Of a stretch of 53,807 bases of DNA, positions 224 through 14,868 are shown in pieces. Below the pieces are notes generated by a model. It had not been told where the DNA came from. It did no database searches and was given only the letters and a program-made list of their open reading frames with translations. Each line of letters starts with the position of its first letter. Within the stretch, counting starts at the first letter, position 1. The stretch is taken from positions 1-53,807 of the forward strand of contig MHOU01000008.1 of assembly GCA_001821935.1 (NCBI GenBank), given 5' to 3'. Position numbers and translations under genes: made by a program. This DNA comes from Candidatus Staskawiczbacteria bacterium RIFCSPHIGHO2_02_FULL_43_16. GTDB taxonomy: Bacteria; Patescibacteriota; Minisyncoccia; Minisyncoccales; Staskawiczbacteraceae.

Positions 224-226
224 TTT

Positions 227-1339
227 ATGATAGATAATACAGAGCAAAAATTACGAAACATAATACATTCCTCAAAAAAGGAGTCTTTGTTGCCTTCAGA
301 AAAAGAGGTGATAAAATCCAATCTCCTTCATTTTATTAAGCAAAACCCCATCAAAGAAAAACGGGAGTTTTTCCATTGGCCCGCGGTTTTCATGTCTATG
401 GCTAACGCGCCGACCGTGCGGTATGTTTCTTTGGTAGCCATGGTGTTGGTGGTAGGTGGTGGTTCAGTTGCTTTTGCCGCCCAAAATTCACAGCCGGGAG
501 AGTTTTTGTATTCGGTAAAAACCGGAGTGAGTGAAAAAGTGCTGGCCTTCACGTTGTTTTCTCCAAAAGCCAAGGCGGAGTTTCAAATTAACCTGGCCCA
601 GCTGCGGCTTGAAGAATTGGAAACCATAGCTTATCAAAATAAATTAGACGGCAAAAACAGCGCCAAGGTGCAAGCCCTGCTTAATAACCACGTGGAAGAT
701 GTGAAAAAAAGGGTTTCCAGTTTGAATGGCCAAGACAAGTCAAAAATTTCCGTGGAAATTAATTCTCGACTTGAAGCATCGCTCAATGCCCATGCTAAGG
801 TGTTGGGAGAATTGTCGGGCAAGGATAACAATTCGTCAGAAGGTTTGAAGAATATTTTGGATGACGTTACCGGTAAGGCCGCCCAAAGTGCCGCATCTCG
901 CCAAAGCGGTGAGTTAACGCTGGTAGTTGAAAAGTCAAATGGTTTTGCAAAGGCTTCGGAAGGAAAATTAAAGGCGGCCCAGCAGGCAATTAACGTTTCG
1001 GCCAGTTTGGTGGCCAGCAAGCAAGAAAACCTGAGCGCCCAGGTTTTTGCCAAGGCCCAAGCTGATTTGGATGTGGCGCGCCAGCATATTGTGGAAGGCC
1101 AAAAGGAAATGGTGATCGGTGAATATGCCAAAGCATTTATCTTTTTTCAGAATGCCTTGCGCCAAGCCCAGGAAGTGAAAATTTATATTTCCAATGAATC
1201 AAAACTGGAATTACATTTTAATTTGCAAGGATCTTTGCTTGCACCTATTAGGCAGCAAATGGAAGGCGGTGGACAAAAAAATGATATTGATGTTAAGATA
1301 GATATTGACAATAAGTTAAATATTATTAATAAGCAGTAA
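227..1339 (+). CDS. DUF5667-type membrane-anchored protein, putative anti-sigma factor
   Basis: Single TM followed by AAQNSQPGEFLYSVKTGVSEKV motif; directly after the ECF sigma gene. Confidence 0.65.
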   Translation: MIDNTEQKLRNIIHSSKKESLLPSEKEVIKSNLLHFIKQNPIKEKREFFHWPAVFMSMANAPTVRYVSLVAMVLVVGGGSVAFAAQNSQPGEFLYSVKTGVSEKVLAFTLFSPKAKAEFQINLAQLRLEELETIAYQNKLDGKNSAKVQALLNNHVEDVKKRVSSLNGQDKSKISVEINSRLEASLNAHAKVLGELSGKDNNSSEGLKNILDDVTGKAAQSAASRQSGELTLVVEKSNGFAKASEGKLKAAQQAINVSASLVASKQENLSAQVFAKAQADLDVARQHIVEGQKEMVIGEYAKAFIFFQNALRQAQEVKIYISNESKLELHFNLQGSLLAPIRQQMEGGGQKNDIDVKIDIDNKLNIINKQ

Positions 1340-1343
1340 AACC

Positions 1344-1679
1344 ATGGATAATGTGCCCTTGAAAGTGCAGCGCTTCACGTATGATATTATTTATTATGTA
1401 CTGTGGATCATAGAAATAACCTTGTTTTTACGGTTCGCGCTAAAGCTTTTGGCGGCCAACCCGGCCAATGAAATTGTGGCATTTTTATACTCAATCAGCC
1501 TGGTGTTGATTGGCCCGTTTGACGGAATGTTCGGCACCTCCATGGTGGGCAATATGGTGCTGGAACCATCGGTGTTAATTGCCATGGTGTTTTACGCCTT
1601 GGTGGGATATGCTTTGGTTTCATTGGTGAAAGTGATTAGCGGGTTTCACAATAGCCCCCCGCCGCACTCATCCATATAA
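1344..1679 (+). CDS. YggT-family membrane protein
   Basis: LRFALKLLAANP...FLYSISLVLIGPFDGMF pattern; hydrophobic. Confidence 0.7.
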   Translation: MDNVPLKVQRFTYDIIYYVLWIIEITLFLRFALKLLAANPANEIVAFLYSISLVLIGPFDGMFGTSMVGNMVLEPSVLIAMVFYALVGYALVSLVKVISGFHNSPPPHSSI

Positions 1680-1681
1680 TA

Positions 1682-1852
1682 CCTTGAATTACGAAATGCC
1701 TTATGAAAAAACGAGTTTCAGGTCTTTCCCCCAAATTTCAACGGAAAATGCGCAATAATTCCAAAACGTAGCTTGCTACGTTTTGGAATTCTATCGCATT
1801 TTCGTTTGGGAAATTTGGGAAAAATCCCATGAAAGCATTTCGTAATTCAAGG
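1682..1852. repeat. Long palindromic MITE-like element with 18-bp perfect terminal inverted repeats
   Basis: CCTTGAATTACGAAATGC ... GCATTTCGTAATTCAAGG with nested internal palindrome; related copy at 50206-50285. Confidence 0.8.
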
Positions 1853-1932
1853 CATATTTTTTAAAAGCCGTCCCCATACGAATGGGGCGGTTTTTTGTTG
1901 TAAGGAACAAAAATGCCAGGCGTCTTATAGGT

Positions 1933-2316
1933 ATGAAAACAAACACTGTATCTTTTTTAACGCTGGGGATATTGTTTTTTTCGGCAATGTTTTTTGCGGG
2001 GGTAAGTCCGGTTGATGCTGCCATGCCGGCTGCCAGCCAACTGGTAAGTATGGAAACCCACAGTACCGACCTTAATGTTTACGACCAGGCCTATCCAGCC
2101 ACACTGATGCCCCAAGCAGAAGGAGGTTACGGATTCCCCTGGCTTTCGCTCAATGAAGTCATGTTGGCATTTTCCGTGGCAGCCGCGCTGGCAGGCGGCT
2201 TATTTTTGCTGTACCTGATAGCAGATTTTTTTACAGACCATGATAAAAAGCGCGCGGTCAGGATGCATTCGCATTCTTCGTTGATGCACCGGCACATAAC
2301 CCCCAAGCACCGATAA
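1933..2316 (+). CDS. Hypothetical membrane protein (signal peptide plus C-terminal TM)
   Basis: ORF, probable start at ATG 1933; two hydrophobic segments. Confidence 0.55.
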   Translation: MKTNTVSFLTLGILFFSAMFFAGVSPVDAAMPAASQLVSMETHSTDLNVYDQAYPATLMPQAEGGYGFPWLSLNEVMLAFSVAAALAGGLFLLYLIADFFTDHDKKRAVRMHSHSSLMHRHITPKHR

Positions 2317-2351
2317 TGGTAGGGCCCTAAAGGTCGAAGGCCCGTACTCTA

Positions 2352-2468
2352 ATTCAAAATTAAAAAATCAAAAATCAAAATGACAATTCAAAATTAAAAA
2401 TGGAGTGAGTGCAAGTAATTTTACATTTTACACTGTCATTTTACATTTTGATATTTGCATTTTGCATT
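2352..2468. repeat. Inverted cluster of ~7-bp AT-rich units (CAAAATT/TTTTGCA type)
   Basis: A-rich arm followed by a complementary T-rich arm; same style at 9594-9725 and 41056-41140. Confidence 0.6.
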
Positions 2469-2475
2469 AACTTTT

Positions 2476-3237
2476 ATGAATAATAAAGGACTCATTATAG
2501 GAATAATCGTGGTAGTGGTAGCAGCATTAATTGGCGGTTGGTGGTGGATGATGTCTGGCGCCAATACTGGCCAGATAAGCAACAACACCAACCAAACGGG
2601 CACGCAAAATACTAACAACGCCGAAGGAACGTTATACGTTAATTTCACCGATGCCGCGGTGAACATGGGCAATGTGAGCACGGTCAATATGACTGTGGAT
2701 AAAGTATATGTGCATAGTCAGACCCAGGGTTGGGTTACCGTTTCAACCACTCCCCAGACCTTCAGTTTGTTAGCCTTAAAAGCCGCCGGTAAAACCGCGG
2801 TCATGGCCAAAACCAACGTTAAAGCCGATACCTATGACCAGGTATGGTTTCATATAACAGCCGTAGCCATAACTGAAACCGGCAAAACCGCCAAGCAGGC
2901 TACGCTGCCTTCCGCTGATTTCAAAATGGCAGGCGCGGTAAAGGTGGTTAACGGAGCAAGTTCAACCGCTACGCTTGATGTGCTGGCTGACCAGTCAATT
3001 TACAAAACCGACAAGGGTGAATTTATTTTCGCCCCGGTAGTAGAATTTGAAGGACGCCAAAGCGCCACGGTTAATGTTGACGCCGACAACATGGCCACTA
3101 TTACCAATGGAATGGTGAATTCAAACACCACCGCCGGCATGGATATTAACGGAGAAGTGAAGGCTAATTTCAAATTAGACCTTAATTCAAAAATTGAAAT
3201 TAACGGGGGAGTGATAAGCGTTAAGAGTGTGATATAG
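2476..3237 (+). CDS. DUF4382-like exported protein
   Basis: N-terminal TM; GTLYVNFTDAA...VNMTVDKVYVH motif. Confidence 0.65.
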   Translation: MNNKGLIIGIIVVVVAALIGGWWWMMSGANTGQISNNTNQTGTQNTNNAEGTLYVNFTDAAVNMGNVSTVNMTVDKVYVHSQTQGWVTVSTTPQTFSLLALKAAGKTAVMAKTNVKADTYDQVWFHITAVAITETGKTAKQATLPSADFKMAGAVKVVNGASSTATLDVLADQSIYKTDKGEFIFAPVVEFEGRQSATVNVDADNMATITNGMVNSNTTAGMDINGEVKANFKLDLNSKIEINGGVISVKSVI

Positions 3238-3239
3238 AA

Positions 3240-3400
3240 AGCGCGGAAAAAACGCGGAATCTTACGCCCAAAAACGCGGAAATGATTCTGCGTTTTTGTT
3301 TCCAATAAGTTTGCTTTTTTTTCCGAAAAAATACACAATTACATCGTATTATTGTTTTCTGCGTCATTCTGCGTAAATTTCCGCGGAGTTCCGCGGGTCG
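3240..3400. repeat. ACGCGGA/TCCGCG inverted repeat cluster
   Basis: Repeated ACGCGGAA units then TTC(C/T)GCG units; similar clusters at 31983-32070 and 41765-41812. Confidence 0.65.
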
Positions 3401-3406
3401 CGCCAT

Positions 3407-4870
3407 ATGCTAACTAAAACCGATTTTATGAATTACCTGGAATGCCCCATGTATTTGTGGCTTTCCAAAAACCGGCCGGAATTGTTGCCGGAAGATGACG
3501 CCGAAAAAGAGCGGATTTTGGCGGCGGGGCGCGAGGTGGACGAATTTGCCAAAAAGTTATTTCCCAAAGCAATAGAAATCAAAGGCTATAACGAAATTGG
3601 TTTTGAACAGACCCAAAAAGCCCTGGCCCAAAATCCCAAGGCGCTGTTTCAGCCCACTGCCGTGGCAGGCGAATTGGCAGCCCGGGCCGATATTTTGGTT
3701 GCCGGCCAAACGCCCGGCACCTTTGACATCAATGAAGTAAAAATGGCCACCAAGGTAAAAAAGGAATATCTGTATGACTTGGGATTCCAAAAAATCTGTT
3801 TTGAAGGCGCGGGCATACAAATCGGCCGATTAAAGTTGGTGCATATTAACGGCAACTATGTGCGCCACGGCGAAATTAACCCCAGCCAGCTGTTTGACAT
3901 TGAAGATATTACGGAAGATGTTAACGAAAAACTGCCCCAGATACAAGATGAAATTCAGCGCGCGCTAAAAATCATTAATCTAAAAGAAGAGCCCAGTGTT
4001 ACTTTGATTAATTCTTGCGCCAACCCCAAATACTGCGATTATATAGAACATTATTCTAAAATATCCGAAGATATTTTTCCGTTAGCCGAAAACATTCAAA
4101 TGCCGCACCTGTTGCACTTGTTGGAGCGTGAAATTTTAGACCACAAAAAAGTGCCCGCCACGCTGTTGGGAAAAATCGGGTTTGAACCGCCGGTGGAATT
4201 TACCAATATAAATACCGAAGGCATAAAACGCGAATTGGCAAAACTGCAATACCCGCTTTACTTTTTTGATTATGAAACTTACAACTGTGCTATTCCGCCG
4301 TTTGACGGCACCACGCCTTATCAGCAAATTCCGTTTCAATATTCACTGCATATCCAAGACGCGCCGGGTGCCCAGCTGCGCCATGCTGATTTTTTAGCCC
4401 AGACCTTTGAAAACCCCATTCCCGGTTTGTTGGAACATTTGCAAAAAGACATGGGCTCCAAAGGCAGCGTGATTGTTTGGTTCGCGCCGTTTGAAACGGG
4501 GCGCAATAAAGAAATGGCTCTGGGAAATCCGGAATTTGCCCAACTGTTGAATTCCATCAATGAACGGATGTTTGACTTGATGGTCATTTTTAAATTTAAA
4601 AATCAGCTGTACACCAAAAGCGAATTTAAAAAACTAGCTTCGTTAAAAGTTATTTTGCCGGTGCTGTGCCCGGAGCTTTCGTACAAAGATTTGGCTATTC
4701 AAGAAGGGGGGACAGCTTCCGCCAGTTGGCCTATTATGACTAACCCGCAAACTCCGCCCAGCGAGCGCGAACGGCTCAAACATGACATGGTTGAATACTG
4801 CAAGCGCGACACCTTGGCCATGGCGGCGATATTGGAGAGGGTGCGAGCAGACCTTGACATAGTTGTGTAA
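3407..4870 (+). CDS. DUF2779-type protein: PD-(D/E)XK (Cas4/RecB-like) nuclease fused to DnaQ/RNase H-like exonuclease
   Basis: CPMYLW, RADIL..INEVK, FFDYET and YCKRDT motifs. Confidence 0.75.
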   Translation: MLTKTDFMNYLECPMYLWLSKNRPELLPEDDAEKERILAAGREVDEFAKKLFPKAIEIKGYNEIGFEQTQKALAQNPKALFQPTAVAGELAARADILVAGQTPGTFDINEVKMATKVKKEYLYDLGFQKICFEGAGIQIGRLKLVHINGNYVRHGEINPSQLFDIEDITEDVNEKLPQIQDEIQRALKIINLKEEPSVTLINSCANPKYCDYIEHYSKISEDIFPLAENIQMPHLLHLLEREILDHKKVPATLLGKIGFEPPVEFTNINTEGIKRELAKLQYPLYFFDYETYNCAIPPFDGTTPYQQIPFQYSLHIQDAPGAQLRHADFLAQTFENPIPGLLEHLQKDMGSKGSVIVWFAPFETGRNKEMALGNPEFAQLLNSINERMFDLMVIFKFKNQLYTKSEFKKLASLKVILPVLCPELSYKDLAIQEGGTASASWPIMTNPQTPPSERERLKHDMVEYCKRDTLAMAAILERVRADLDIVV

Positions 4871-4882
4871 ATAATACATAAT
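4854..4882 (+). promoter_or_regulatory. Sigma-70 promoter of the effector gene
   Basis: TTGACA(4854)-17 bp-CATAAT(4877); SD AAGGAG at 4922-4927 before GTG 4935. Confidence 0.7.
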
Positions 4883-4934
4883 AGGAGACGTTTACAGTAC
4901 CTTACACTATCAACATTTCACAAGGAGTTTTTCC

Positions 4935-6383
4935 GTGAAAAACACCAAAGAAGAAAAGTGGATGCAGACGTATTGCTTCGATCTGACAGATGAGGAGTTC
5001 GGCGCGGAAAATATCCGCCTGGCGACGCACATCAGCGATAGCCTGGTGCCACTTTTTAATGAAGTTCTTCTGCAAGTTCTCAAGGGTGACGAAACCATCA
5101 AGGAGTTAAAGCAGGAGGTGAAACTACGTGGCAGAGCGCTCAAGCAAAAGGCTAAGGAGGCGCAGATGGAAGATTTGTGGGACAGGGAAAACAACGAGAT
5201 TGACGACGAAGAGTGGCTGGAAAGGGGATATGACCAAGAGGTTATCAAAGAGCATCGTGACTACGTTGACGAAATAGCAAAGCTATATTCGGAAAACAAA
5301 GTCACGGCCTTTGATCACAACTACCACTACGCCCAAGAAAATCTAGAGGCAATTGGTTGCACCGCACCGTACGTTAATATCTCTGCTGGACTTCGCCGTG
5401 GCGCCATTAAAAACTGCCACGGGGCAGTGGATTCATGGCGTAAGCATTTGGCGACGGGCGATTACAAGTCCAAGCCGCCCGGTCAGCAAGAGGTTGGCAA
5501 GTTTTATATGCTTCGGTGCGAACCTGGGTGCGCTGTCACCAAAGATCGTAAAAACGTGCGCATCAGTCTTGGAGATCGCAAGTCCAGCCCGGTGTTTGAG
5601 CTGCCTGGGCTTGATAATTCCAAAAACAAACCCCTGCACATGCTTTTGCGTTCTGATGCGAAGGTGAAAAGTTTTACTTTGAGCCGCCGTTCAGCTCGCA
5701 ACCCTGACAAAAAAGAGTCGGACTTGCAAAAGCCCGGCGTGTGGCGCATTTCAATTAATTTCGAATTGCCTTTGCCAGAGAAAAAGCCCGCGACTGAATA
5801 CAATACGGTGGCGTTGGTTATCGGGTCAAACTACCTTGGGGTGGCATTACATGATTCGGAGAGAAACTTTCCTTTGAATCTGCCATTGCCTCACAAGCAC
5901 TGGTTCCCGATTATTGGCGACATTGAGGGTCGGGCAAACGTTCCTTGGCGGAAGAAAGGGAGTAAAAAGTGGCGGCGAAAAATGTTTGGCGTCCAGAAAA
6001 AGCATTCTGGCGGCCGGCAGGCCTGCTACAGATACATGGCTCGCCAGCAAAAACAAGGCGAGTACGAAACCATTGCCGATCACCTGATTGGCTGTGGTGT
6101 TCACTTTGTGGTGAGCAAACCTTCAATCAACCATCCAAAAGGTTTGGCTGATGCTTCTGCTCCTGACCGCGGAGGTGATACCGGTCCCAACCGCATCATC
6201 TCTAGCACCGGTGTTAATTCGCTCGTGTTAAAGCTCAAGCAGAAAGTGAAGGAGTTTGGCGGGTCGGTCACAGAAATGGAAGCGCCACCGTTGCCCGAAC
6301 GATTTCGTTTTTGGGACAGCGGCCCCAAAAAAGTGATCGTTGCCCAGTTGTTGAGAAATCAATATCTGGCGCAAAAAAAATAA
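4935..6383 (+). CDS. TnpB/Cas12-like CRISPR-associated protein, predicted nuclease-dead
   Basis: TnpB-like blocks (QTYCFDL, VKSFTLSR..GVWRISINFE, KKGSKKWRR, NRIISSTG..LKQKVKEFG); RuvC-I reads VALVIG (D>V295), RuvC-II reads FVVSK (E>S394); no Zn finger or RuvC-III; next to cas1 and array. Confidence 0.8.
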   Translation: MKNTKEEKWMQTYCFDLTDEEFGAENIRLATHISDSLVPLFNEVLLQVLKGDETIKELKQEVKLRGRALKQKAKEAQMEDLWDRENNEIDDEEWLERGYDQEVIKEHRDYVDEIAKLYSENKVTAFDHNYHYAQENLEAIGCTAPYVNISAGLRRGAIKNCHGAVDSWRKHLATGDYKSKPPGQQEVGKFYMLRCEPGCAVTKDRKNVRISLGDRKSSPVFELPGLDNSKNKPLHMLLRSDAKVKSFTLSRRSARNPDKKESDLQKPGVWRISINFELPLPEKKPATEYNTVALVIGSNYLGVALHDSERNFPLNLPLPHKHWFPIIGDIEGRANVPWRKKGSKKWRRKMFGVQKKHSGGRQACYRYMARQQKQGEYETIADHLIGCGVHFVVSKPSINHPKGLADASAPDRGGDTGPNRIISSTGVNSLVLKLKQKVKEFGGSVTEMEAPPLPERFRFWDSGPKKVIVAQLLRNQYLAQKK

Positions 6384-6388
6384 CTCAG

Positions 6389-6425
6389 GCCGTCCCGGTA
6401 CACCTGTATCGCGGACGGCATTTTT
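6389..6425 (+). terminator. Intrinsic terminator after the effector gene
   Basis: GCCGTCC-CGGTACA..TGTATCG-CGGACGGC hairpin followed by ATTTTT. Confidence 0.7.
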
Positions 6426-6439
6426 GTTACACTATAACT

Positions 6440-7171
6440 ATGAATGCCATTTGGTTAACTCATATTTCCAATTACCAAAAAACCGCACATGCTTTTGCTT
6501 CGGCTGAAAAGATTATGAATGTAAAAAACCAGCGGCGTGAATTACTCATGCAAAGGTATGGCACTCTGTTACCCAAAATACGTTTGGCAGATTATCATAA
6601 TAACCAAGAAATTATGTTAGCCGAAGGCCGCACCGCCCAAATATTTTGGAAAAAGTTTTCTTTGCTGTTGCCAAGATGGTGCAGCTTTCGTTCAAGATAC
6701 CCAGGGTCAGATGATCTGGTTAATCGATTACTAGATTTGGGCTACCATCAAATTACTAATGCTATCAGGAAAATCCTTGAAAAGTATGATATTTCGTCAG
6801 CGCTAGGAATTTTGCATGTTGCTCGCAAAACAACCAGCGCTCCACTGGCGTATGATTTGGTAGAAATGTTCCGGGCGGATATTGTGGAAGTGGAAGTCTT
6901 AAGATTTTTGCGCATGAAAAAACAGCCATTGGAAGAGCTGCGCCAAAAAGATATTGCTATTTTTTTATACAGAATTAATCACCGCCTTAATCATAGGTAT
7001 TTTATTAAATCGTTCAAGCAATGCCAAACCTACCGCTATTATATGGAATTACAAATCTTAAAATTTATCAAAGCGGTAAACCATAAAGAAGTTTTTTCTC
7101 CAATTTATTTACCTATTCGTCATGATACAAGATGTACTAAGGGAGTATGTTTTCATGACAAAAAAACTTGA
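6440..7171 (+). CDS. cas1: Short Cas1 (catalytic helical domain only, 243 aa)
   Basis: EGRTAQIFW, DLVNRLLDLGY, GILH, LAYDLVEMFR Cas1 motifs; TG-n-TACACT 6 nt before ATG 6440 supports this start. Confidence 0.85.
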   Translation: MNAIWLTHISNYQKTAHAFASAEKIMNVKNQRRELLMQRYGTLLPKIRLADYHNNQEIMLAEGRTAQIFWKKFSLLLPRWCSFRSRYPGSDDLVNRLLDLGYHQITNAIRKILEKYDISSALGILHVARKTTSAPLAYDLVEMFRADIVEVEVLRFLRMKKQPLEELRQKDIAIFLYRINHRLNHRYFIKSFKQCQTYRYYMELQILKFIKAVNHKEVFSPIYLPIRHDTRCTKGVCFHDKKT

Positions 7172-7197
7172 CAAATAAGGCGATGCCATGCTAAGCT
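7168..7197 (+). promoter_or_regulatory. Promoter for the CRISPR leader/array
   Basis: TTGACA(7168) and extended -10 TG-c-TAAGCT(7192). Confidence 0.55.
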
Positions 7198-7203
7198 CAA
7201 AAT

Positions 7204-7428
7204 AGCACATCATAGGAATATGAGAAAAGTACCCCTGTTCTTGGCAGTTCAGGAAGTATTTTTCTCACCAACTAGTGGTAGTCAGGATGATTACCTTCAA
7301 TCAATTGACAGGATGTATGCGCTGTAGCAGCGCCGCCTGGTCTTGAGCGGACCGGGATGAGGCCTTGTAAAATCTCCTTGCTTTCCTGCAAGGTTGAGGA
7401 AAAAAACACCCCCAGCTCATTTTTTCTT
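7204..7428 (+). ncRNA. Structured CRISPR leader; candidate tracr/scout-like RNA
   Basis: Hairpins at 7221-7267, 7277-7295, 7336-7356 and 7376-7393 between the promoter and repeat 1. Confidence 0.45.
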
Positions 7429-7955
7429 GTAGACGGGCCCTTGCCGACGACGGAGGGGGTTGGTTACTGAAGGGCAACTAGCCACAAATGTCCCATCTTG
7501 TAGACGGGCCCTTGCCGACGACGGAGGGGGTTGGTTACGATAACCGGTTCTGGGAATGAAATTTTTTCCAAGTAGACGGGCCCTTGCCGACGACGGAGGG
7601 GGTTGGTTACGAAAAACAGAACTTTTAGAGCCTCTCTGGTCTTGTAGACGGGCCCTTGCCGACGACGGAGGGGGTTGGTTACGGCAATAGACATGACAAA
7701 AAAAGCGATGATAAGTAGACGGGCCCTTGCCGACGACGGAGGGGGTTGGTTACTGGTCCACGAATGGGCCCTTTCTTAAACTTCGTAGACGGGCCCTTGC
7801 CGACGACGGAGGGGGTTGGTTACAAATAACGGCGACAAGAAAGTATTTTTAGCGGCGTAGACGGGCCCTTGCCGACGAAGACGGGGGTTGGCTACAACAC
7901 GGCCTTATCAATTTTCTTGGGCAAATGTAGACGGGCCCTTGCCGACGACGGAGGG
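7429..7955 (+). CRISPR. CRISPR array: 8 repeats (39 bp, GTAGACGGGCCCTTGCCGACGACGGAGGGGGTTGGTTAC), 7 spacers of 31-33 bp
   Basis: Repeats start at 7429, 7500, 7572, 7644, 7715, 7785, 7857 (4 mismatches) and 7927 (truncated to 29 bp); degenerate right end and downstream terminator indicate + orientation. Confidence 0.98.
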
Positions 7956-7980
7956 TCAAAACAAAAAACAAAAAACTGCC

Positions 7981-8008
7981 AAAGAGCTTCATTGGGGGCT
8001 CTTTTTTC
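7981..8008 (+). terminator. Intrinsic terminator after the array
   Basis: AAAGAGCTTC-ATTG-GGGGCTCTTT followed by a T run. Confidence 0.75.
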
Positions 8009-8103
8009 TTGTAGAACTTTTGTGGTAGAATGGTTTTATGAAAAAAAAGTGGCGATTTTTATAGAGGGGCCACAAAGATATTTCAAAACATATTTCAAAA
8101 CAT

Positions 8104-8132
8104 TTGACAGTCATTTTTTAGAAGCATATAAT
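8104..8132 (+). promoter_or_regulatory. Consensus sigma-70 promoter (leaderless transcript)
   Basis: TTGACA-17 bp-TATAAT, ATG 6 nt downstream. Confidence 0.85.
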
Positions 8133-8138
8133 GAAAAT

Positions 8139-8387
8139 ATGTTAGATGATAAAGATATACAAAAATTAATAGAGGTATTTGCAACAAGAGAGGAAATTGT
8201 TACAAAACCGATGTTTGAAGAATTAAAGTCAAGTTTTAATGACCTGCAAACTTCGGTTGATGCTTATGCCGAAAAAGCGGATACATATTTCCAGGAAATG
8301 GCAATGTTGACCCTTAAGGTAAATAGGCATGAAAAGTGGTTGGAAAAAATGGCAGAAAAATTGGGGATGAAACTTGATTATTACTAA
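8139..8387 (+). CDS. Small coiled-coil hypothetical protein (82 aa)
   Basis: MLDDKDIQKLIEVFATREE...; own promoter and terminator (8404-8431). Confidence 0.7.
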   Translation: MLDDKDIQKLIEVFATREEIVTKPMFEELKSSFNDLQTSVDAYAEKADTYFQEMAMLTLKVNRHEKWLEKMAEKLGMKLDYY

Positions 8388-8515
8388 CATTATCAAGGCT
8401 ACAAAAAATCACCTTAACACGGTGATTTTTTGTGCATTTGACAGCAGGCAGTTTAACTGGTAATATTATTTTTAGTTGTAGATTTCACTGGCTAGTTTTC
8501 ATAAAGGAGTTGGGA

Positions 8516-8791
8516 ATGCGAAGTACCAGTACCGAGGCTGTTGTCTGCCCCATTGAAGGTAGTGATGGCCGTCACACGTGGCATCAGGTTGGTTTCGAAA
8601 TCAAGCCCGCTTGCAAATGTGGAATCGTGTTGTGCGGAGCCAATAGTCCGCAGCAAGGGGAATTCTACGCCCCCTGCAATCTTCCCAAAAACCATGATGG
8701 GCCGTGTGAATGCACCTGGCATCCTGAATTGGGCACTTGGGAAAAAACAACTCCCGCCAGGCACGAAACTGGCCAGTTAGTCGAAGTTTGA
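8516..8791 (+). CDS. Small Cys/His-rich hypothetical protein (91 aa)
   Basis: SD AAGGAG before ATG 8516; upstream TTGACA-17-TAATAT; terminator-like hairpin at 8808-8842. Confidence 0.55.
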   Translation: MRSTSTEAVVCPIEGSDGRHTWHQVGFEIKPACKCGIVLCGANSPQQGEFYAPCNLPKNHDGPCECTWHPELGTWEKTTPARHETGQLVEV

Positions 8792-8871
8792 TCTGTTGCG
8801 GATCAACCAAGGCGGCCCGAATTACCGTGGCCGCCTTTTTTCTTGGAAAAAATGTGTGGTAGAATACGGGT

Positions 8872-9594
8872 ATGAAACAAAAAGTCGCGATTTTTGATGT
8901 TGATGGCACGATTTTCCGATCCAGTTTATTAATAGAAGTGGTACGGGTTTTAATTGAAAATAAAATATTTCCGCAGAAAGTAAGGTTCACCTATGAAAAA
9001 AGTTACCAGGATTGGTTGGATAGAAAAGGCAGTTATGAAACCTATATTATGGATGTGGTTAAGGCTTTTGAGGGGAATTTGAAAATATTGGCCCACGATG
9101 ATTTTATGAGAGCGGTAAAACAGGTCATTGCTTTCCATAAAAACCGGACCTATGTTTACACGCGGGGCTTGATTGCCGATTTAAAAAAGAAAGGCTATTT
9201 TATTTTAGCCATTTCTCATTCGCCCAAAGAATTACTGGATGAGTTTTGTGCGCAGTGGGGGTTTGATAAGGTGTATGGCCGGGTGTATGAAGTGGGCAAG
9301 AACGGGAAATTTACCGGTGAAACATTATATAAAGAAGAAATTTCCGACAAGGCAAAAATTTTAAAGCGTTTTATTGAAAAGGCCACCGCCGTTGGCGGGG
9401 TCCCGTCCGAAGGCGGGAAAGGGTTGAGTTTGGCGGATTCCTATGGTGTGGGGGATTCGGAAAGTGATATTAAGTTTTTGACGTTTGTGGAAAACCCGAT
9501 TTGTTTTAACCCTAATGGTAAGCTGTATGAGCACGCCAAAAAGCATGGGTGGCAAATAGTCGTTGAGCGCAAAGATGTAATATATAATTTATAA
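8872..9594 (+). CDS. HAD-superfamily (IB, SerB-like) hydrolase
   Basis: FDVDGT motif I, GDSESD motif IV. Confidence 0.9.
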   Translation: MKQKVAIFDVDGTIFRSSLLIEVVRVLIENKIFPQKVRFTYEKSYQDWLDRKGSYETYIMDVVKAFEGNLKILAHDDFMRAVKQVIAFHKNRTYVYTRGLIADLKKKGYFILAISHSPKELLDEFCAQWGFDKVYGRVYEVGKNGKFTGETLYKEEISDKAKILKRFIEKATAVGGVPSEGGKGLSLADSYGVGDSESDIKFLTFVENPICFNPNGKLYEHAKKHGWQIVVERKDVIYNL

Positions 9595-9725
9595 ATCCAA
9601 AATACAAAATTACAAATCCCAAATAATACCAAAATCCAAACTTTTTAAATCCAAAACACTTTTTGAATTTTAAATTTCGAAGATTGTAATTTATTTGGAG
9701 CTTGTAATTTTGAATTTGTAATTTA
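9594..9725. repeat. Inverted cluster of heptamer-like units (AAATCCA/AAATTAC)
   Basis: AAATCCAAAATACAAAATTACAAATCCCAAATAA arm and complementary arm; near copy at 41056-41140. Confidence 0.65.
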
Positions 9726-9731
9726 ACTTTC

Positions 9732-10442
9732 ATGGACTTAAAAGGAAAAACCATCATCATTACTGGGGCGGCGCGGATTGGGAAGGAAGTGGCAAAACAA
9801 CTTAAAGAAAAAGGGGCGAATTTGGTGATAGCGTATTTCAGCGACCCGGCTGAGGCCGGGCCCCATGGCGCGGGTGTGCAGGCCGATGTTTCAAAAAAAG
9901 AAGATGTGGCACGGGTGGTGGCATTTGCCAAAGAAACATTTGGCCGAGTGGACGGGCTGGTGCATATGGCGGCCATTTATGAAAAATCGCCTTGGGAAGC
10001 GCTGGACGAAAAGCATTGGGACAAAAATATGAATGTCATGGCCAAAAGCACGTTTTTATTTGGCAAGATTTTGGGGGATGAACTTTTGAAAAATGATGGG
10101 GAAGTAAAGGGGAAGATGATTTTCTTTGCTGATTGGTCGGTGCTGGCTAGCCCATACAAAGATTACTTAGCTTATAATGCGGCCAAAAGCGCCGTGGTGG
10201 GGTTGACCAAGTCGTTTGCCAAGGAATTGGCTCCCGGAGTTTTGGTCAATGCCATTGCGCCCGGCCCCATGTTGCGGCCGCTGGATTTGACCGATGAAGA
10301 AAATGAAGAAGCCATGGCCGGCACGCCGCTTGCCCGCTGGGGCGGGGCGGATGAAATTGCTAAAGGGGTTTGCTATTTAATGGATGCCGATTTTGTGACG
10401 GGGCAAGTGCTGACGATTGACGGAGGGAGGAGTATTGCTTGA
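9732..10442 (+). CDS. Short-chain dehydrogenase/reductase (pteridine reductase-like)
   Basis: TGAARIG, YNAAK, VNAIAPG, DGG motifs. Confidence 0.9.
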   Translation: MDLKGKTIIITGAARIGKEVAKQLKEKGANLVIAYFSDPAEAGPHGAGVQADVSKKEDVARVVAFAKETFGRVDGLVHMAAIYEKSPWEALDEKHWDKNMNVMAKSTFLFGKILGDELLKNDGEVKGKMIFFADWSVLASPYKDYLAYNAAKSAVVGLTKSFAKELAPGVLVNAIAPGPMLRPLDLTDEENEEAMAGTPLARWGGADEIAKGVCYLMDADFVTGQVLTIDGGRSIA

Positions 10443-10607
10443 CGGATTTATTAAGATATTGCATAGCTATTGACACGCAAAACATAGCATGCTAACATTA
10501 CCTTACTTAGTAGAAGCGGGGTCGAGTTTCTCACGAGGTAAAATTTAAAAGTAACAACAGGTGGCAGGCGGCGGGTTAATCCCCAAAACCTAACACCTAA
10601 AATCTAG

Positions 10608-10805
10608 ATGACAGGTACAATCAAAACTCTGACAGAAAAAGGTTTTGGATTTATCGCCCGCGAAGGCGAAGCCAAGGATCTTTTCTTCCATTCAAATGAT
10701 TTGAATGGCGTAACCTTCACTGAATTGAAAGTTGGCGATGTAGTCAACTTCGATGTTGAAGAAGGTCCAAAAGGACCTAGCGCAAAAAACGTAACACGCG
10801 CTTAG
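10608..10805 (+). CDS. cspA: Cold-shock protein
   Basis: KGFGFI and DLFFH RNP motifs; terminator at 10816-10843. Confidence 0.92.
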   Translation: MTGTIKTLTEKGFGFIAREGEAKDLFFHSNDLNGVTFTELKVGDVVNFDVEEGPKGPSAKNVTRA

Positions 10806-10887
10806 TTAGTAATAAAAGCCGCGCCCTGTCGGGCGCGGCTTTTATGTTGTTGCAAAAAACCGCCACCAGTGAGATAATGTATATATT

Positions 10888-11664
10888 ATGGCCATACAGC
10901 GCAGAAGGTCAAATTTATATACACCGGGATTAGATGCTCCTTTCAATGTCAGCAGGTCAAAAATCGCGCTCTTCTTGGAATGCCCACAATGTTTTTGGCT
11001 GGACCGGCGGCTGGGGATTTCCCGGCCAGACATGCCCGGCTGGTCGCTTAACAGTGCGGTGGACACCTTGCTAAAAAACGAATTTGATTTACTGCGTGAA
11101 AAAAAAGAACCGCACCGGCTGATGCTGTTTCACCGCATAGACGCTGTTCCATTCAATCACCCCGATTTCCACATTTGGCGGGATGATCATGGTAAGCGCA
11201 TCGGGGCTTCTGTCTTACACAAAAAAACTAATTTGAATATTTGTGGTATCATTGATGATATCTGGCAAAACACGCAAACCGGGCAGCTGCACATTGTAGA
11301 TTACAAATCCACCAGCACCGATTACCGAATTTCCCTGGACGGCAAGTACAAAGATGGCTATAAAAAACAGATGGAAGTATACCAGTGGATTTTCAAACAG
11401 ATGGGCTTTGAGGTTGCGCCCGCCGGTTATTTCTTGTTTGCCAATGCCGTAAAAAACCGGCCGGGTTTTCATGGCAAATTGGAATTTGAGAGTTCTATTT
11501 TAGAGCACGTTGGCGATGATTTATGGATTGAACCTGTTTTGCTGGATATTAAAAAATCCCTTGATAGCGATCACATTCCCGAACCGGGGCCGCAATGTCA
11601 GCATTGCGCTTACCGCAAATTAATCAACCAAGCAAAATTAAAAACACAAATCAGTTTAATTTAA
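10888..11664 (+). CDS. PD-(D/E)XK nuclease family protein (Cas4/AddB-like, 4 Cys)
   Basis: CPQC, GIIDD, VDYKST, QMEVY, CQHC. Confidence 0.85.
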   Translation: MAIQRRRSNLYTPGLDAPFNVSRSKIALFLECPQCFWLDRRLGISRPDMPGWSLNSAVDTLLKNEFDLLREKKEPHRLMLFHRIDAVPFNHPDFHIWRDDHGKRIGASVLHKKTNLNICGIIDDIWQNTQTGQLHIVDYKSTSTDYRISLDGKYKDGYKKQMEVYQWIFKQMGFEVAPAGYFLFANAVKNRPGFHGKLEFESSILEHVGDDLWIEPVLLDIKKSLDSDHIPEPGPQCQHCAYRKLINQAKLKTQISLI

Positions 11665-11668
11665 AAAC

Positions 11669-12064
11669 ATGGATGAAAAGTTAAAGTGGGGGATAATAAC
11701 CATTATCATAATTTCAGTCATTGCGGGCGGGTTTTTCGTTCTGCAAAACATCCAGCATGCCAAAGCGGTAAAGCTTCAACAGTTTGCCACGTGCTTGAAA
11801 GATAGTGGCGCGGTTTTTTACGGGGCGTTTTGGTGTTCACATTGCCAGAACCAAAAAGCCATGTTTAATACCTTATTTGAAAGCGCTGTGGATAAACTGC
11901 CTTACATTGAATGCTCAACGCCTGATACCAACGGTCAGCTGGAAATTTGCAAAACAGAAAAAATAGACACGTATCCAACCTGGAAATTCGCCGACGGTTC
12001 GGTTGAAACCGGAGAAGTTTCTTTGCAAAAACTTTCACAGAAAACTAATTGTCCGTTGCCATAG
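11669..12064 (+). CDS. Thioredoxin-like membrane-anchored protein
   Basis: FYGAFWCSHC, YIEC, YPTW. Confidence 0.8.
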   Translation: MDEKLKWGIITIIIISVIAGGFFVLQNIQHAKAVKLQQFATCLKDSGAVFYGAFWCSHCQNQKAMFNTLFESAVDKLPYIECSTPDTNGQLEICKTEKIDTYPTWKFADGSVETGEVSLQKLSQKTNCPLP

Positions 12065-12066
12065 TT

Positions 12067-12609
12067 ATGGATTTACTGTTTATCGTCAATAAAAAACTTG
12101 CTATTGAAACGGTACTGGCCCAGCTGTTTATTGTTTGGGCTTTGGTGTATCTGTTTTTTTTGCGTAATAAGCACCGTACGATAACAGATTTTTTAGGAAA
12201 ATATGGAATTGCGTTTGCGTTTTTGATTTCTTTTACGGCAACCGCCGGCAGTTTATTTTATTCAAACGTGGCGGGGTATGCGCCATGTTACCTGTGCTGG
12301 TGGCAGAGGATTTTCATGTATCCACTGGTGATTATCACCGGTTTGGCTTTGTTAAAACGCGACCGGCGCGCCGTAGATTATATTCTTTCGCTTGCGGTGA
12401 TTGGGTTCGGTATTTCCCTTTGGCACAATTTCATTTACTACTACAATGGAGGGTTAAGTGTGTTTTGTGATTTAGGCGCCGGCCAGGTTTCTTGCGTGAA
12501 GCGCTATGTGTTTGAATTGGGTTATGTGACCATTCCCATGATGGCGCTGACGGCGTTTGCCCTGATTATTACCCTTACCATTTTTGTAAAATTAAAAGAT
12601 AAATCATAA
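12067..12609 (+). CDS. Disulfide bond formation protein DsbB/BdbC family
   Basis: GSLFYS..PCYLCWWQRIFMYP. Confidence 0.88.
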   Translation: MDLLFIVNKKLAIETVLAQLFIVWALVYLFFLRNKHRTITDFLGKYGIAFAFLISFTATAGSLFYSNVAGYAPCYLCWWQRIFMYPLVIITGLALLKRDRRAVDYILSLAVIGFGISLWHNFIYYYNGGLSVFCDLGAGQVSCVKRYVFELGYVTIPMMALTAFALIITLTIFVKLKDKS

Positions 12610-14571: not shown

Positions 14572-14868
14572 ATGTCATTTTTTGATCAAATAGCTATAAG
14601 GATCATCAAAGAACAGGAGCTTATTATTGGTCCGGTTGCTTGGGATGAAGCAAAAAAAGTTTCGGGCCTTCAAATGACTGGTTTAAACCATACCGAAATT
14701 AGTGTTCAAAATGGTGATCCTAAGGTAGTAATCAATAAGCTGGTAGAGCAATATGAAAATATTTTCGGCAAAGCTTCCCACGAAGTTTGCAAAGAGGCGG
14801 TGCAGGATTTGATTGCGGAAATGCCGGACGACCAGATTCCTTCAAGTTTGAAGCAACGGGCCCAATAA
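14572..14868 (+). CDS. Conserved hypothetical protein
   Basis: IIKEQELIIGPVA motif; co-oriented with the sensor gene. Confidence 0.6.
   Translation: MSFFDQIAIRIIKEQELIIGPVAWDEAKKVSGLQMTGLNHTEISVQNGDPKVVINKLVEQYENIFGKASHEVCKEAVQDLIAEMPDDQIPSSLKQRAQ

What the first reader, a model, noticed from the sequence alone, without database searches (positions are those of the whole stretch)
7754..7784. Spacer 5 is antisense to the 5' end of ribosomal protein S19 (rpsS)
Its reverse complement reads (R)SLRKGPFVD, matching the S19 N-terminus RSLKKGPF(V/I)D. The site lies a few codons after the start codon inside the S10 operon, where a roadblock would be polar on downstream ribosomal genes.
Basis: partly seen in the sequence, partly recalled or inferred. 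Interest (0 to 1): 0.85.

Follow-up and report, generated by a model that had tools for sequence, protein, structure and literature searches.

The report
CRISPR spacer matching own rpsS gene
A CRISPR spacer in this very small groundwater bacterium is an exact copy of the start of its own ribosomal protein S19 gene, and the neighbouring Cas12-like protein lacks the residues needed to cut DNA, so the cell survives the match, which might act as a natural gene brake.

Summary
Window 7754-7784 is spacer 5 of a seven-spacer CRISPR array (7429-7955). It matches the genome's own rpsS, codons 3-13, at 31 of 31 bases and is antisense to it. It is not the only such spacer. Spacers 1, 2 and 6 match the genome's own enolase, fusA and rplD genes. 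Spacers 4 and 7 match a Na/Ca-exchanger gene and glyA of close relatives.

The array lies downstream of a 482-aa protein with a Cas12f/TnpB fold. This protein lacks the RuvC-I Asp and RuvC-II Glu, and it ends before the zinc finger and RuvC-III. Also present are a short Cas1 with an intact active site and a conserved, covarying tracr-like RNA. No Cas2 gene and no second array were found.

A second species of the genus carries a related system. One of its spacers matches its own genome perfectly and another matches partly.

My best reading is that these spacers were captured from the cell's own chromosome by a binding-only type V system, and that they are tolerated because nothing is cut. No PAM is shared. 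Seven of eight gene-matching spacers lie in the orientation that gives a weak roadblock for Cas12-type proteins. Deliberate self-regulation is not excluded.

The parts
3407..4870 (+). DUF2779 / Cas4-like PD-(D/E)xK nuclease gene (487 aa). A resident chromosomal neighbour of the CRISPR module, not shown to be part of it.
   Evidence: Pfam DUF2779 E 5.9e-37; the Cas_Cas4 match is weak (0.0019, below cut-off). PADLOC Cas4 E 2e-05. The gene is present at 75% DNA identity in the complete congener genome G186, which has no CRISPR module. It also lies beside the effector in L004, L005, L009, L012/L013 and G439.
4935..6383 (+). Effector: 482-aa protein with a Cas12f/TnpB fold, lacking RuvC catalytic residues and truncated at the C-terminus (nuclease-dead).
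   Evidence: PADLOC Cas12_x1 (CAS-V-F effector) E 1.2e-42, end to end. No Pfam or NCBIfam hit. AlphaFold2 model pLDDT 88.6, pTM 0.81. Foldseek top hits are AsCas12f 8j12_A (E 3.8e-10), Cas12m2, CnCas12f1, dCas12f 9n9c and ISDra2 TnpB. The RuvC-I Asp column holds Ala in the family and Val in this protein; the RuvC-II Glu column holds Thr in the family and Ser here. The protein ends before the zinc finger and RuvC-III.
6311..7171 (+). cas1. The ORF is 286 aa; the part conserved among relatives begins at Met44, position 6440. It is a short Cas1 lacking the N-terminal domain.
   Evidence: Pfam Cas_Cas1 E 3.7e-20. TIGR00287 matches model positions 91-326 of 327. The Glu, His and Asp/Glu motifs align to solved Cas1 structures. 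It is 74% identical to the Cas1 of L008, although the two effectors are only 29% identical.
7225..7428 (+). tracr-like structured RNA and leader between cas1 and the first repeat.
   Evidence: Alignment of 8 loci shows a conserved core. RNAalifold predicts 24 pairs, 12 of them with compensatory changes. In 5 of 8 loci the best duplex with the repeat starts at the same conserved tracr motif and pairs with the 3' end of the repeat, and the two covary. A conserved leader motif lies just before repeat 1.
7429..7955 (+). CRISPR array of 8 repeats (39 nt) and 7 spacers (31-33 nt). The degenerate repeats are at the right-hand (trailer) end.
   Evidence: It is the only array in the genome. The 3' end of the repeat is conserved across relatives.
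7468..7499 (+). Spacer 1: 32/32 match to the own enolase gene (C10:75583-75614), antisense, codons 28-38.
   Evidence: E 2.2e-10; Pfam Enolase_N/C.
7539..7571 (+). Spacer 2: 32/33 match to the own fusA (EF-G) gene (C10:15303-15335), antisense. The mismatch is at spacer position 1.
   Evidence: It also matches fusA of many relatives at 88-94%.
7611..7643 (+). Spacer 3: no match found anywhere searched.
   Evidence: No match in the own genome with up to 7 mismatches, none in 60 family genomes, and no exact 26-nt core match in viral contigs.
7683..7714 (+). Spacer 4: antisense to a Na/Ca-exchanger family gene of relatives (28/32). No homologue in this assembly.
   Evidence: PF01699. tblastn against the own genome found nothing. 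A 1310-nt non-array contig in run X6 matches the spacer with 1 differing letter.
7754..7784 (+). Spacer 5 (the finding): 31/31 match to the own rpsS gene, codons 3-13 (C10:21429-21459), antisense.
7824..7856 (+). Spacer 6: 31/33 match to the own rplD (L4) gene (C10:19942-19974), sense orientation. The mismatches are at spacer positions 1 and 7.
7896..7926 (+). Spacer 7 (the oldest): antisense to glyA. It has 2 and 3 mismatches to the glyA of congeners G276 and G186, and 7 mismatches to the own glyA.
   Evidence: PF00464.
7981..8013 (+). Terminator-like hairpin plus T-run just after the array.
   Evidence: Similar hairpin plus T-run after the arrays of relatives, by my reading of their sequences.

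Best explanation
Spacer 5 is a real spacer captured from the cell's own rpsS gene. It sits in a small type V CRISPR system made of a tracr-like RNA, a short Cas1, and a Cas12f-like effector that can bind a target but cannot cut DNA. Cas1, without Cas2, inserts 31-33 nt pieces of DNA at the leader end with no visible PAM selection. Because self DNA is the commonest DNA in the cell, and because a self-match is not lethal when nothing is cut, chromosome-derived spacers accumulate and persist. The spacers that survive are those whose guide does little harm: either it pairs with the coding strand, which is the weak roadblock orientation for Cas12-type proteins, or it has mismatches at the 5' (seed) end. 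On this reading the rpsS match is tolerated self-targeting, with at most weak repression of rpsS, rather than a dedicated regulator.

Shown: the perfect self-match, the multi-spacer pattern, the absence of catalytic residues, the intact Cas1 motifs, the conserved RNA, and persistence across samples.

Inferred: how the spacers were captured, that the effector binds its targets, and that the effect on expression is small.
For: Self-matches.
- 4 of 7 spacers match the own genome: 32/32, 32/33, 31/31 and 31/33. The targets are enolase, EF-G, S19 and L4.
- 2 further spacers match chromosomal genes of congeners.

Effector.
- It has a Cas12f/TnpB fold.
- It lacks the RuvC-I Asp and RuvC-II Glu and ends before RuvC-III.
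- In the 51-member family alignment the majority residues at these two positions are Ala and Thr, and the aligned members end before RuvC-III. This looks like a long-standing state rather than a recent break.

Adaptation and guide RNA.
- The Cas1 catalytic motifs are present.
- No Cas2 and no other array were found in the genome.
- The RNA between cas1 and the array covaries: 12 of 24 predicted pairs show compensatory changes.

No shared flanking motif. None was seen on either side of the eight protospacers.

Orientation and mismatches.
- 7 of 8 gene-matching spacers, in two genomes, are antisense to the mRNA.
- The single sense spacer (rplD) has mismatches at positions 1 and 7.
- DNase-dead Cas12a represses better when the guide targets the template strand (abstract of PMC5460296).

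Persistence. The locus is held by 9 DNA runs from 6 studies. In the four runs laid, spacers 1, 2, 6 and 7 are covered in all four, and spacer 5 in X1 and X2.

Recurrence. In congener G439, a related orphan tracr-plus-array has 1 of 4 spacers matching its own genome at 32/32 (a metallo-beta-lactamase-fold gene) and 1 of 4 at 27/32 (a release factor gene). No better match was found in 25 congeners.

Precedent. A Roizmanbacteria CasY locus with a fragmented effector has 12 self-targeting spacers, and CPR bacteria lack RecBCD-based self-avoidance (passages of PMC6509639).
Against: - Two spacers match essential genes perfectly and are kept across samples and years. This fits a useful function as well as it fits neutrality.
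- The sources are not random. All four own-genome sites lie on one contig that is 12.7% of the assembly, and three lie within 6.2 kb of the fusA-to-rpsS region. By my own arithmetic, four random draws would all fall on that contig with probability of about 3e-4. Pure neutral sampling therefore needs an added bias, such as high transcription.
- The antisense excess (7 of 8; one-sided binomial 0.035, my arithmetic) could reflect RNA-level action or an acquisition bias rather than purging of harmful guides.
- The other two arrays tested in congeners, with one spacer each (G336 and G439 contig C1), show no self-match.
- Binding, TAM requirement, expression of the array and any effect on rpsS were not measured.
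- The genome is a metagenome bin.
Confidence: 0.55

Rival explanations
1. Deliberate self-regulation (natural CRISPRi). The nuclease-dead effector uses these guides to dampen the cell's own translation and central-metabolism genes (rpsS, rplD, fusA, eno, glyA). This would give a heritable, Cas1-updatable brake on growth in an ultra-small symbiont.
For: - The effector family appears nuclease-dead across the 51 aligned members yet keeps its arrays, Cas1 and a covarying guide scaffold.
- The targets are enriched for translation and housekeeping genes in two genomes: S19, L4, EF-G, enolase, SHMT and a release factor.
- The perfect matches to essential genes persist in runs from several studies.
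- G439 carries an orphan tracr-plus-array away from its cas genes.
- There are precedents. TldR and dCas12f are RNA-guided transcription factors, and a CRISPR-linked dCas12f cluster has guides against an efflux promoter (passages of PMC13472631).
Against: - The targets lie at arbitrary places inside coding regions, not at promoters.
- There is no shared flanking motif.
- The orientation is the weak one for Cas12-type roadblocks.
- Targets are not shared between G000, G336 and G439.
- An array variant lacking spacers 3-5, including the rpsS spacer, exists in run X9.
- Older spacers and their repeats have decayed: spacer 7 has 7 mismatches to the own glyA.
- Effectors at the same chromosomal site are only 29-76% identical within one genus while Cas1 is 70-74% identical. 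That pattern is more typical of a conflict system.
Confidence: 0.22
2. The spacers are aimed at DNA of close relatives rather than at self, for example incoming homologous DNA or competitors. The own-genome matches would then be collateral.
For: - Spacer 7 is nearer to the glyA of congeners (2 and 3 mismatches) than to the own glyA. Its 7 mismatches to the own gene equal the mean between-species difference per 31 nt.
- The target gene of spacer 4 is missing from this assembly but present in 10 relatives.
- Spacer 2 lies in a segment of fusA conserved across 8 of 16 genera sampled.
Against: - Spacers 1 and 5 match the own genome perfectly, and no congener matches better: the best for spacer 5 is 30/31 in G186, and spacer 1 has no hit.
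- The perfect self-match in G439 has no counterpart in 25 congeners.
- A non-cutting effector is a poor barrier to incoming DNA.
- A contig at depth similar to this organism's in run X6 carries the spacer 4 target with 1 mismatch, so that gene may simply be unassembled here.
Confidence: 0.1
3. Action at the RNA level. The guides are antisense to mRNAs, and the PAM-less effector binds transcripts. For rpsS it would bind right after the start codon and hinder translation.
For: - 7 of 8 gene-matching spacers are complementary to the mRNA.
- No flanking motif is shared, as expected for single-stranded targets.
- The rpsS target covers codons 3-13 and the release-factor target lies at the 5' end of its ORF.
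- Cas12g, an RNA-targeting relative, is among the fold matches.
Against: - The best fold matches are DNA-binding Cas12f, Cas12m and TnpB.
- The other targets lie deep inside their genes.
- The strand bias rests on only eight cases and has other explanations.
- No RNA data are available.
Confidence: 0.07
4. Artefact. The array contig and the rpsS contig come from different organisms that were binned together, or the contig is a mobile element that targets a host.
For: The genome is a 12-contig metagenome bin. The CRISPR module is patchy in the genus, found in 5 of 26 genomes.
Against: - Window 1-12,600 is collinear with the complete single-contig genome of congener G186. The CRISPR module is a roughly 4-kb insertion between two conserved chromosomal genes.
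- Estimated contamination is 0.07%.
- The best matches of spacers 1, 2, 5 and 6 are in this bin, not in 60 family genomes.
- Array pieces and target-gene contigs occur in the same runs at similar depth.
Confidence: 0.02

Closest known systems
Fragmented CasY (Cas12d) locus with self-targeting spacers in CPR Roizmanbacteria (Chen et al. 2019, PMC6509639; passages read)
   Same: A CPR bacterium with a type V array in which a large share of spacers match the organism's own genes (12 of 22 unique spacers there). The effector is presumed unable to cut. Old self-targeting spacers persist in the population, and a Cas4-like protein is nearby. The authors also raise genome regulation as a possibility.
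   Different: There the effector is a large CasY broken by recent mutations that keeps its RuvC residues, and the self-targets keep the 5'-TA/TG PAM. Here the effector is a 482-aa Cas12f-like protein from a family that lacks the catalytic residues, no PAM is visible, and the targets include essential translation genes.
Nuclease-dead Cas12f homologues (dCas12f-sigmaE, and a CRISPR-linked dCas12f cluster) (Hoffmann et al. 2026, PMC13472631; passages read)
   Same: A Cas12f-like fold with a C-terminal truncation that removes part of the RuvC site. A guide RNA scaffold upstream of the array that was detected by covariation. Guides that match the host chromosome. The solved dCas12f structures (9n9c, 9n9m) are among the top fold matches.
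   Different: Those proteins are from Bacteroidetes, and are linked to a sigma factor or target a promoter upstream of an efflux system. The passages read do not mention a Cas1 link. Here the system is in Patescibacteria, is linked to Cas1, and its targets lie inside coding regions. Sequence relatedness to that clade was not tested.
Cas12m (type V-M), binding-only interference (PMC11013384 abstract in a search listing; Wu 2022 seen only as a cited reference)
   Same: A small type V effector that silences by binding DNA rather than cutting it. Cas12m2 structures are among the top fold matches.
   Different: Cas12m is about 600 aa, and type V-M loci are reported without adaptation genes (passage of PMC10691335). 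A Cas12m fold hit alone does not make this protein a member.
TldR, TnpB-like nuclease-dead repressors (bioRxiv 10.1101/2023.11.30.569447; search listing only)
   Same: TnpB/Cas12-fold proteins that have lost RuvC activity and act as RNA-guided repressors of host genes.
   Different: As I recall, TldRs use a single fixed guide, have no CRISPR array or Cas1, and target promoters of specific partner genes.
Cas1-only type V adaptation modules (V-C, V-D) (passage of PMC10691335)
   Same: Type V loci that carry cas1 but no cas2 or cas4.
   Different: Those effectors are large active nucleases. As I recall, their spacers are short (17-19 nt), against 31-33 nt here.

Membership tests
CRISPR array | Direct repeats of constant length separated by unique spacers of similar length | tested here: met
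   Eight 39-nt repeats at 70-72 nt spacing and seven unique spacers of 31-33 nt.
CRISPR array | Adjacent cas genes, a leader, and a defined polarity | tested here: met
   cas1 and the effector lie upstream. The leader motif is conserved. The degenerate repeats are at the far end, followed by a terminator-like site.
Self-targeting spacer | Full-length, near-perfect match to the same genome outside the array | tested here: met
   31/31 at C10:21429-21459. The match stops at the repeat edges. The reversed-pattern control gave 0 hits.
Self-targeting spacer | Array and target lie in one organism | tested here: inconclusive
   Supported by synteny of the contig with a complete congener genome, 0.07% contamination, and best matches in the own bin. 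The genome is still a metagenome bin of 12 contigs.
Type V effector of the Cas12f / TnpB kind | Fold: WED/REC lobe plus a RuvC-type RNase H core | tested here: met
   Foldseek against the PDB put AsCas12f, CnCas12f1, dCas12f, Cas12m2 and ISDra2 TnpB at the top, with E 3.8e-10 to 1.6e-8 and TM up to 0.65 on the target. PADLOC Cas12_x1 E 1.2e-42.
Type V effector of the Cas12f / TnpB kind | RuvC catalytic triad (Asp in RuvC-I, Glu in RuvC-II, Asp in RuvC-III) and a C-terminal zinc finger | tested here: not met
   In profile alignments to solved nucleases, Asp aligns to Ala in the family (Val in this protein) and Glu aligns to Thr (Ser here). The protein ends before the zinc finger and RuvC-III. 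It is therefore not an active Cas12f nuclease.
Nuclease-dead RNA-guided DNA binders (dCas12f, TldR, Cas12m-like) | Loss of catalytic residues while the fold and the guide RNA are retained | tested here: met
Nuclease-dead RNA-guided DNA binders (dCas12f, TldR, Cas12m-like) | Demonstrated guide-dependent DNA binding and an effect on transcription | not testable with these tools
   This needs ChIP or reporter assays. No run on record as RNA holds the locus.
Nuclease-dead RNA-guided DNA binders (dCas12f, TldR, Cas12m-like) | A defined target-adjacent motif | tested here: not met
   No consensus on either flank of the eight protospacers, six from this array and two from G439. The sample is small and covers two different effectors.
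Cas1 integrase | Cas1 catalytic domain with the Glu, His and Asp/Glu motifs | tested here: met
   Pfam E 3.7e-20; TIGR00287 at 74.2 bits against a cut-off of 71.7. The motifs align to solved Cas1 chains.
Cas1 integrase | N-terminal beta-domain and a Cas2 partner | tested here: not met
   The profile match starts at model position 91 of 327. No Cas2 (PF09827) was found in a genome that is 94.9% complete.

The most novel reading that the evidence does not exclude
This would be an adaptive natural CRISPRi system. A Cas1-fed, nuclease-dead Cas12f-like effector in an ultra-small Patescibacteria cell writes guides against the cell's own ribosomal protein, elongation factor, release factor and glycolysis genes. 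It would use them, at the DNA level or on the mRNA, to throttle growth, giving a heritable and updatable brake on translation capacity.
Probability: 0.2. Interest if true: 0.9.

Novelty: new variant of a known kind. Interest (0 to 1): 0.72.

Why it matters
Self-targeting spacers are normally lethal accidents. Here a perfect match to an essential ribosomal gene sits in an array whose effector comes from a family that lacks nuclease residues yet keeps Cas1, a covarying guide scaffold and small arrays that change over time. That makes a long-standing question testable: what happens when CRISPR adaptation continues without cutting? Arrays might fill with harmless self-spacers, or this might be a route by which programmable gene regulation arises from immunity.

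The 482-aa effector and its roughly 200-nt scaffold are also a compact, naturally dead DNA-binding module. If the absence of a flanking motif reflects the effector itself, it would be unusually free in its choice of target.

Tried and rejected
Things that led nowhere or were rejected:
- I first suspected that the ribosomal operon lay in the window itself. The ORF at 14572-14868 is not S19, and the target is on another contig.
- Rfam found nothing in the window at gathering thresholds.
- A simple inverted-repeat search gave no clear anti-repeat. A window-wide RNAduplex scan was noisy. The anti-repeat proposal rests only.
- phmmer of the effector against PDB sequences gave 0 hits.
- The first AlphaFold2 model, built on 4 sequences, was poor (pLDDT 65.7). 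It was replaced by the model built on 51 sequences.
- Spacer 3 has no exact 26-nt core match in viral contigs.
- The 17 distinct spacers from relatives (18 entries, one shared by L012 and L013) were translated and compared with this genome's ORFs. They scored no better than reversed controls: the best real score was 22.6 bits against 21.2 for controls. Whether metagenome relatives also carry host-derived spacers therefore stays open.
- Origin or terminus proximity does not explain the clustering of sources. In the complete congener genome, dnaA lies at 185.7 kb and rpsS at 642.8 kb of 661.75 kb.
- No PAM/TAM consensus was found in either array orientation.
- No RNA holder is listed for the locus, so nothing can be said about expression.
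- In run X9, bins 7104-7438 had no cover. This says nothing.
- The wider search for more genomes with the system found only the window's own genome among 401 phylum genomes and 3 of 401 in the order.
- Supplementary files were not opened. The SI of PMC10691335 may list this effector family as one of its V-U groups, and the supplements of PMC6509639 and PMC13472631 may hold comparable self-targets.
- Literature searches listed no paper that describes a Cas1-linked nuclease-dead Cas12f-like system in Patescibacteria with spacers against its own ribosomal genes. These searches cover only the held library.
Full report
**The observation**

Window 7429-7955 is a CRISPR array. It has eight copies of a 39-nt repeat at 70-72 nt spacing: six are perfect, one has 4 mismatches, and the last is truncated. 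The seven spacers are 31-33 nt long.

The finding's coordinates, 7754-7784, are exactly spacer 5. The reverse strand of 7756-7785 reads RSLRKGPFVD; the first base of the Arg codon belongs to the repeat.

The 31-mer occurs in the 740,502-base genome only in the array and at C10:21429-21459, with no mismatch. A reversed control pattern gave nothing. In the window, 0 of 100 shuffles gave any hit at up to 3 mismatches. BLAST of the array against the genome gave E = 2.6e-9 for this spacer.

The matched site is codons 3-13 of the only S19 gene in the genome (PF00203, E 5.5e-34). That gene sits between genes scoring as L2 and L22, with L4 upstream. The match stops at the repeat edges. The taxon with identical codons is the organism itself.

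**It is not one spacer but most of the array**

| Spacer | Best match | Identity | Orientation |
|---|---|---|---|
| 1 | own enolase, codons 28-38 | 32/32 | antisense |
| 2 | own fusA | 32/33, mismatch at position 1 | antisense |
| 3 | none found | - | - |
| 4 | Na/Ca-exchanger gene of relatives | 85-88% in 10 relatives (28/32 in the two fetched) | antisense |
| 5 | own rpsS, codons 3-13 | 31/31 | antisense |
| 6 | own rplD | 31/33, mismatches at positions 1 and 7 | sense |
| 7 | glyA of congeners | 2 and 3 mismatches (7 to the own glyA) | antisense |

I searched the whole array against 60 other genomes of the family.
- Spacer 4: this assembly holds no homologue of the exchanger gene (tblastn). 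However, a 1310-nt non-array contig in run X6 carries the site with one differing letter.
- Spacer 7: the 7 mismatches to the own glyA equal the mean between-species difference per 31 nt in that gene.
- Spacer 3: it matched nothing in the own genome, in the 60 family genomes, or, as a 26-nt exact core, in viral contigs.

Six of seven spacers therefore derive from chromosomal genes of this lineage. Four are best matched by the organism's own genome. All four own-genome sites lie on one contig that is 12.7% of the assembly, and three lie within 6.2 kb.

**The system around it**

Three genes lie upstream on the same strand.
- Window 3407-4870 encodes a DUF2779 protein with a weak Cas4-like signal.
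- Window 4935-6383 encodes a 482-aa protein with no Pfam or NCBIfam hit, but an end-to-end match to PADLOC Cas12_x1, a V-F effector model (E 1.2e-42).
- Window 6311-7171 encodes Cas1.

The 482-aa protein has only 4 close relatives in 5.8 billion clustered proteins. A profile search finds 65 clusters of mostly 400-550 aa.

With 51 of them as an alignment, AlphaFold2 gives pLDDT 88.6 and pTM 0.81. Foldseek places the model with AsCas12f, Cas12m2, CnCas12f1, the solved dCas12f and ISDra2 TnpB (E 3.8e-10 to 1.6e-8).

Profile alignments to solved nucleases locate the catalytic positions.
- The RuvC-I Asp column holds Ala in the family and Val in this protein.
- The RuvC-II Glu column holds Thr in the family and Ser here.
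- The proteins end before the zinc finger and RuvC-III.

The family consensus lacks these residues, so the loss is old.

Cas1 keeps its Glu, His and Asp/Glu motifs but lacks the N-terminal domain. No Cas2 gene and no second array were found in this 94.9%-complete genome.

A structured RNA lies between cas1 and repeat 1.
- Across 8 loci it has a conserved core, and 12 of 24 predicted pairs show compensatory changes.
- In 5 of 8 loci the best duplex with the repeat starts at the same conserved motif. It pairs with the conserved 3' end of the repeat, and the two covary.

Three things fix transcription on the + strand: the degenerate repeats at the far end, the conserved 3' end of the repeat next to each spacer, and a terminator-like site at 7981-8004. 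The spacer 5 crRNA is therefore antisense to rpsS mRNA and would pair with the coding strand.

**Is it one organism?**

Window 1-12,600 is collinear with the complete single-contig genome of congener G186. That genome has the DUF2779 gene (75% identity) and the HAD hydrolase gene about 900 nt apart. In this genome about 4 kb lies between them, holding the effector, cas1, the RNA, the array and two small ORFs. The contig is therefore chromosomal.

Estimated contamination is 0.07%. Spacers 1, 2, 5 and 6 match this bin better than any of the 60 family genomes.

Nine DNA runs from six studies hold the locus. Four of them were laid on it.
- X1 and X2 carry pieces with spacers 1-3 and 5-7.
- X9 holds a contig that joins position 7571 to 7785. 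This is an array variant without spacers 3-5.
- Target-gene contigs occur at similar depth in the same runs.

**Relatives**

The effector family is rare. It was found in 3 of 401 genomes of the order (all in the window's genus), in the window's genome only among 401 genomes of the phylum, and in 5 of 26 genomes of the genus.

Within the genus the effectors are 29-76% identical while the Cas1 proteins are 70-74% identical. cas1 is decayed in some loci: an internal deletion in L004/G302, frameshifts in L009/G439, and a remnant in L012/L013.

Fourteen metagenome loci share the layout of effector, cas1, RNA, a mini-array of 1-5 spacers and a terminator. L012 and L013 differ by two leader-end spacers.

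Self-matching could be tested in two other genomes.
- G336: its single spacer has no self-match.
- G439, cas-linked array on contig C1: its single spacer has no self-match.
- G439, orphan RNA-plus-array on contig C6: four spacers.
  - One matches the own genome at 32/32 and is antisense in a metallo-beta-lactamase-fold gene.
  - One matches at 27/32, with all five mismatches in the first eight positions. It is antisense at the 5' end of a release factor gene.
  - No better match exists in 25 congeners.

Self-derived spacers therefore recur in a system whose effector is only 29% identical to this one.

**How it most likely works**

No motif is shared on either flank of the eight protospacers. 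Seven of eight are antisense to the mRNA. The one sense spacer (rplD) has mismatches at positions 1 and 7. The one mismatch of spacer 2 is also at position 1. By my reading of the reading frames, the spacer 2 mismatch and the position-7 mismatch of spacer 6 are synonymous.

For DNase-dead Cas12a, guides that target the template strand repress better inside genes (abstract of PMC5460296). Here nearly all guides would target the coding strand.

The simplest account has two parts. Cas1 captures chromosomal fragments without PAM choice. Because the effector cannot cut, such spacers are not lethal. Those that would block RNA polymerase strongly have been lost or have seed mismatches, and the rest persist.

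This parallels the Roizmanbacteria CasY locus with a fragmented effector and 12 self-targeting spacers. Its authors note that CPR bacteria lack RecBCD-based self-avoidance (PMC6509639).

I give this account 0.55. Its weak points are:
- the clustering of sources in highly expressed translation genes;
- the strand bias, which has other readings;
- the lack of any direct data on binding or expression.

**Rivals**

- Deliberate self-regulation (0.22) has real support. The family is old, dead and maintained, the targets are translation and central-metabolism genes in two genomes, and nuclease-dead TnpB/Cas12f proteins are proven transcription factors (PMC13472631). Against it: the targets are inside genes at arbitrary places, they are not shared among congeners, a variant without the rpsS spacer exists, and old spacers have decayed.
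- Targeting of relatives' DNA (0.10) is suggested by spacers 4 and 7, but it cannot explain the perfect own matches.
- RNA-level action (0.07) is suggested by the strand bias and the lack of a flanking motif.
- A binning artefact (0.02) is contradicted by synteny and by the read data.

**Compared with what is known**

- The effector has a Cas12f-like fold but fails the catalytic test, so it is not an active Cas12f.
- It resembles dCas12f and TldR in the loss of RuvC, and Cas12m in presumably acting by binding only. It differs from all three in being tied to Cas1 and to a changing array.
- Altae-Tran et al. report branches of Cas12f and several V-U groups with altered catalytic sites (PMC10691335). 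This family may be one of them. I could not see the supplements.
- Searches listed no description of this system or of spacers against an organism's own ribosomal genes in Patescibacteria.

I rate it a new variant of a known kind, with interest 0.72.

Noticed in passing
L042 1340-1850 (G439:C6, about 20100-20614): An orphan tracr-like RNA plus a four-spacer array, with no cas gene in the 1.3 kb upstream. The matching effector and a frameshifted cas1 lie on another contig (C1). Two of its four spacers match G439's own genes.
   Followed up: yes
window 6311-7171 compared with L008 9207-9929, L009 and L005: Cas1 is 70-74% identical between loci whose effectors are only 29-47% identical. The effector is evolving, or being replaced, much faster than the integrase at what seems to be the same chromosomal site.
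   Followed up: partly
L004 5739-6110; L009 9144-9905 (also L007 and G439); L012/L013 9074-9247: cas1 is decayed in several relatives (internal deletion, two frameshifts, or only a C-terminal remnant), while the effector ORF stays intact.
   Followed up: partly
window 3407-4870, and G186:C1:42901-44251: The DUF2779/Cas4-like nuclease gene is a resident gene of the genus, present without any CRISPR module in G186. Yet it lies beside the effector in the loci of G000, G302, G425 and G439 and in metagenome loci L009 and L012/L013. This could be an insertion hot spot or a functional link.
   Followed up: partly
window 8104-8791: Inside the roughly 4-kb insertion, after the array, there is a perfect sigma-70-type promoter (8104-8132). 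It is followed by an 82-aa ORF (8139-8387) and a Cys-rich ORF (8432-8791). Neither has a Pfam hit.
   Followed up: partly
L024 4850-5560 (minus strand) and L042 1990-2070: Short inverted-repeat elements built around a repeated 'GAATTACGAA'-like motif interrupt or flank the tracr and array regions in G336 and G439. They look like a miniature mobile element.
   Followed up: no
L019 6940-8693: In a 631-kb metagenome contig the tracr-like RNA and a one-spacer array lie upstream of the effector on the opposite strand, with no cas1 nearby. This is a different locus layout for the same family. Its genome could not be searched.
   Followed up: partly
L012 9473-9724 compared with L013 9473-9583: Two assemblies of the same locus differ by two spacers at the leader end. 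This is consistent with recent polarised spacer gain or loss.
   Followed up: no
L005 / G425:C40: The public record title calls this genome an uncultured Saccharibacteria bacterium. The genome tool places the same contig in the same genus as the window.
   Followed up: no
window 7571-7785 in run X9: A population variant of the array lacks spacers 3-5, a 213-nt deletion of three repeat-spacer units. Runs X6 and X9 show almost no cover over these spacers.
   Followed up: partly
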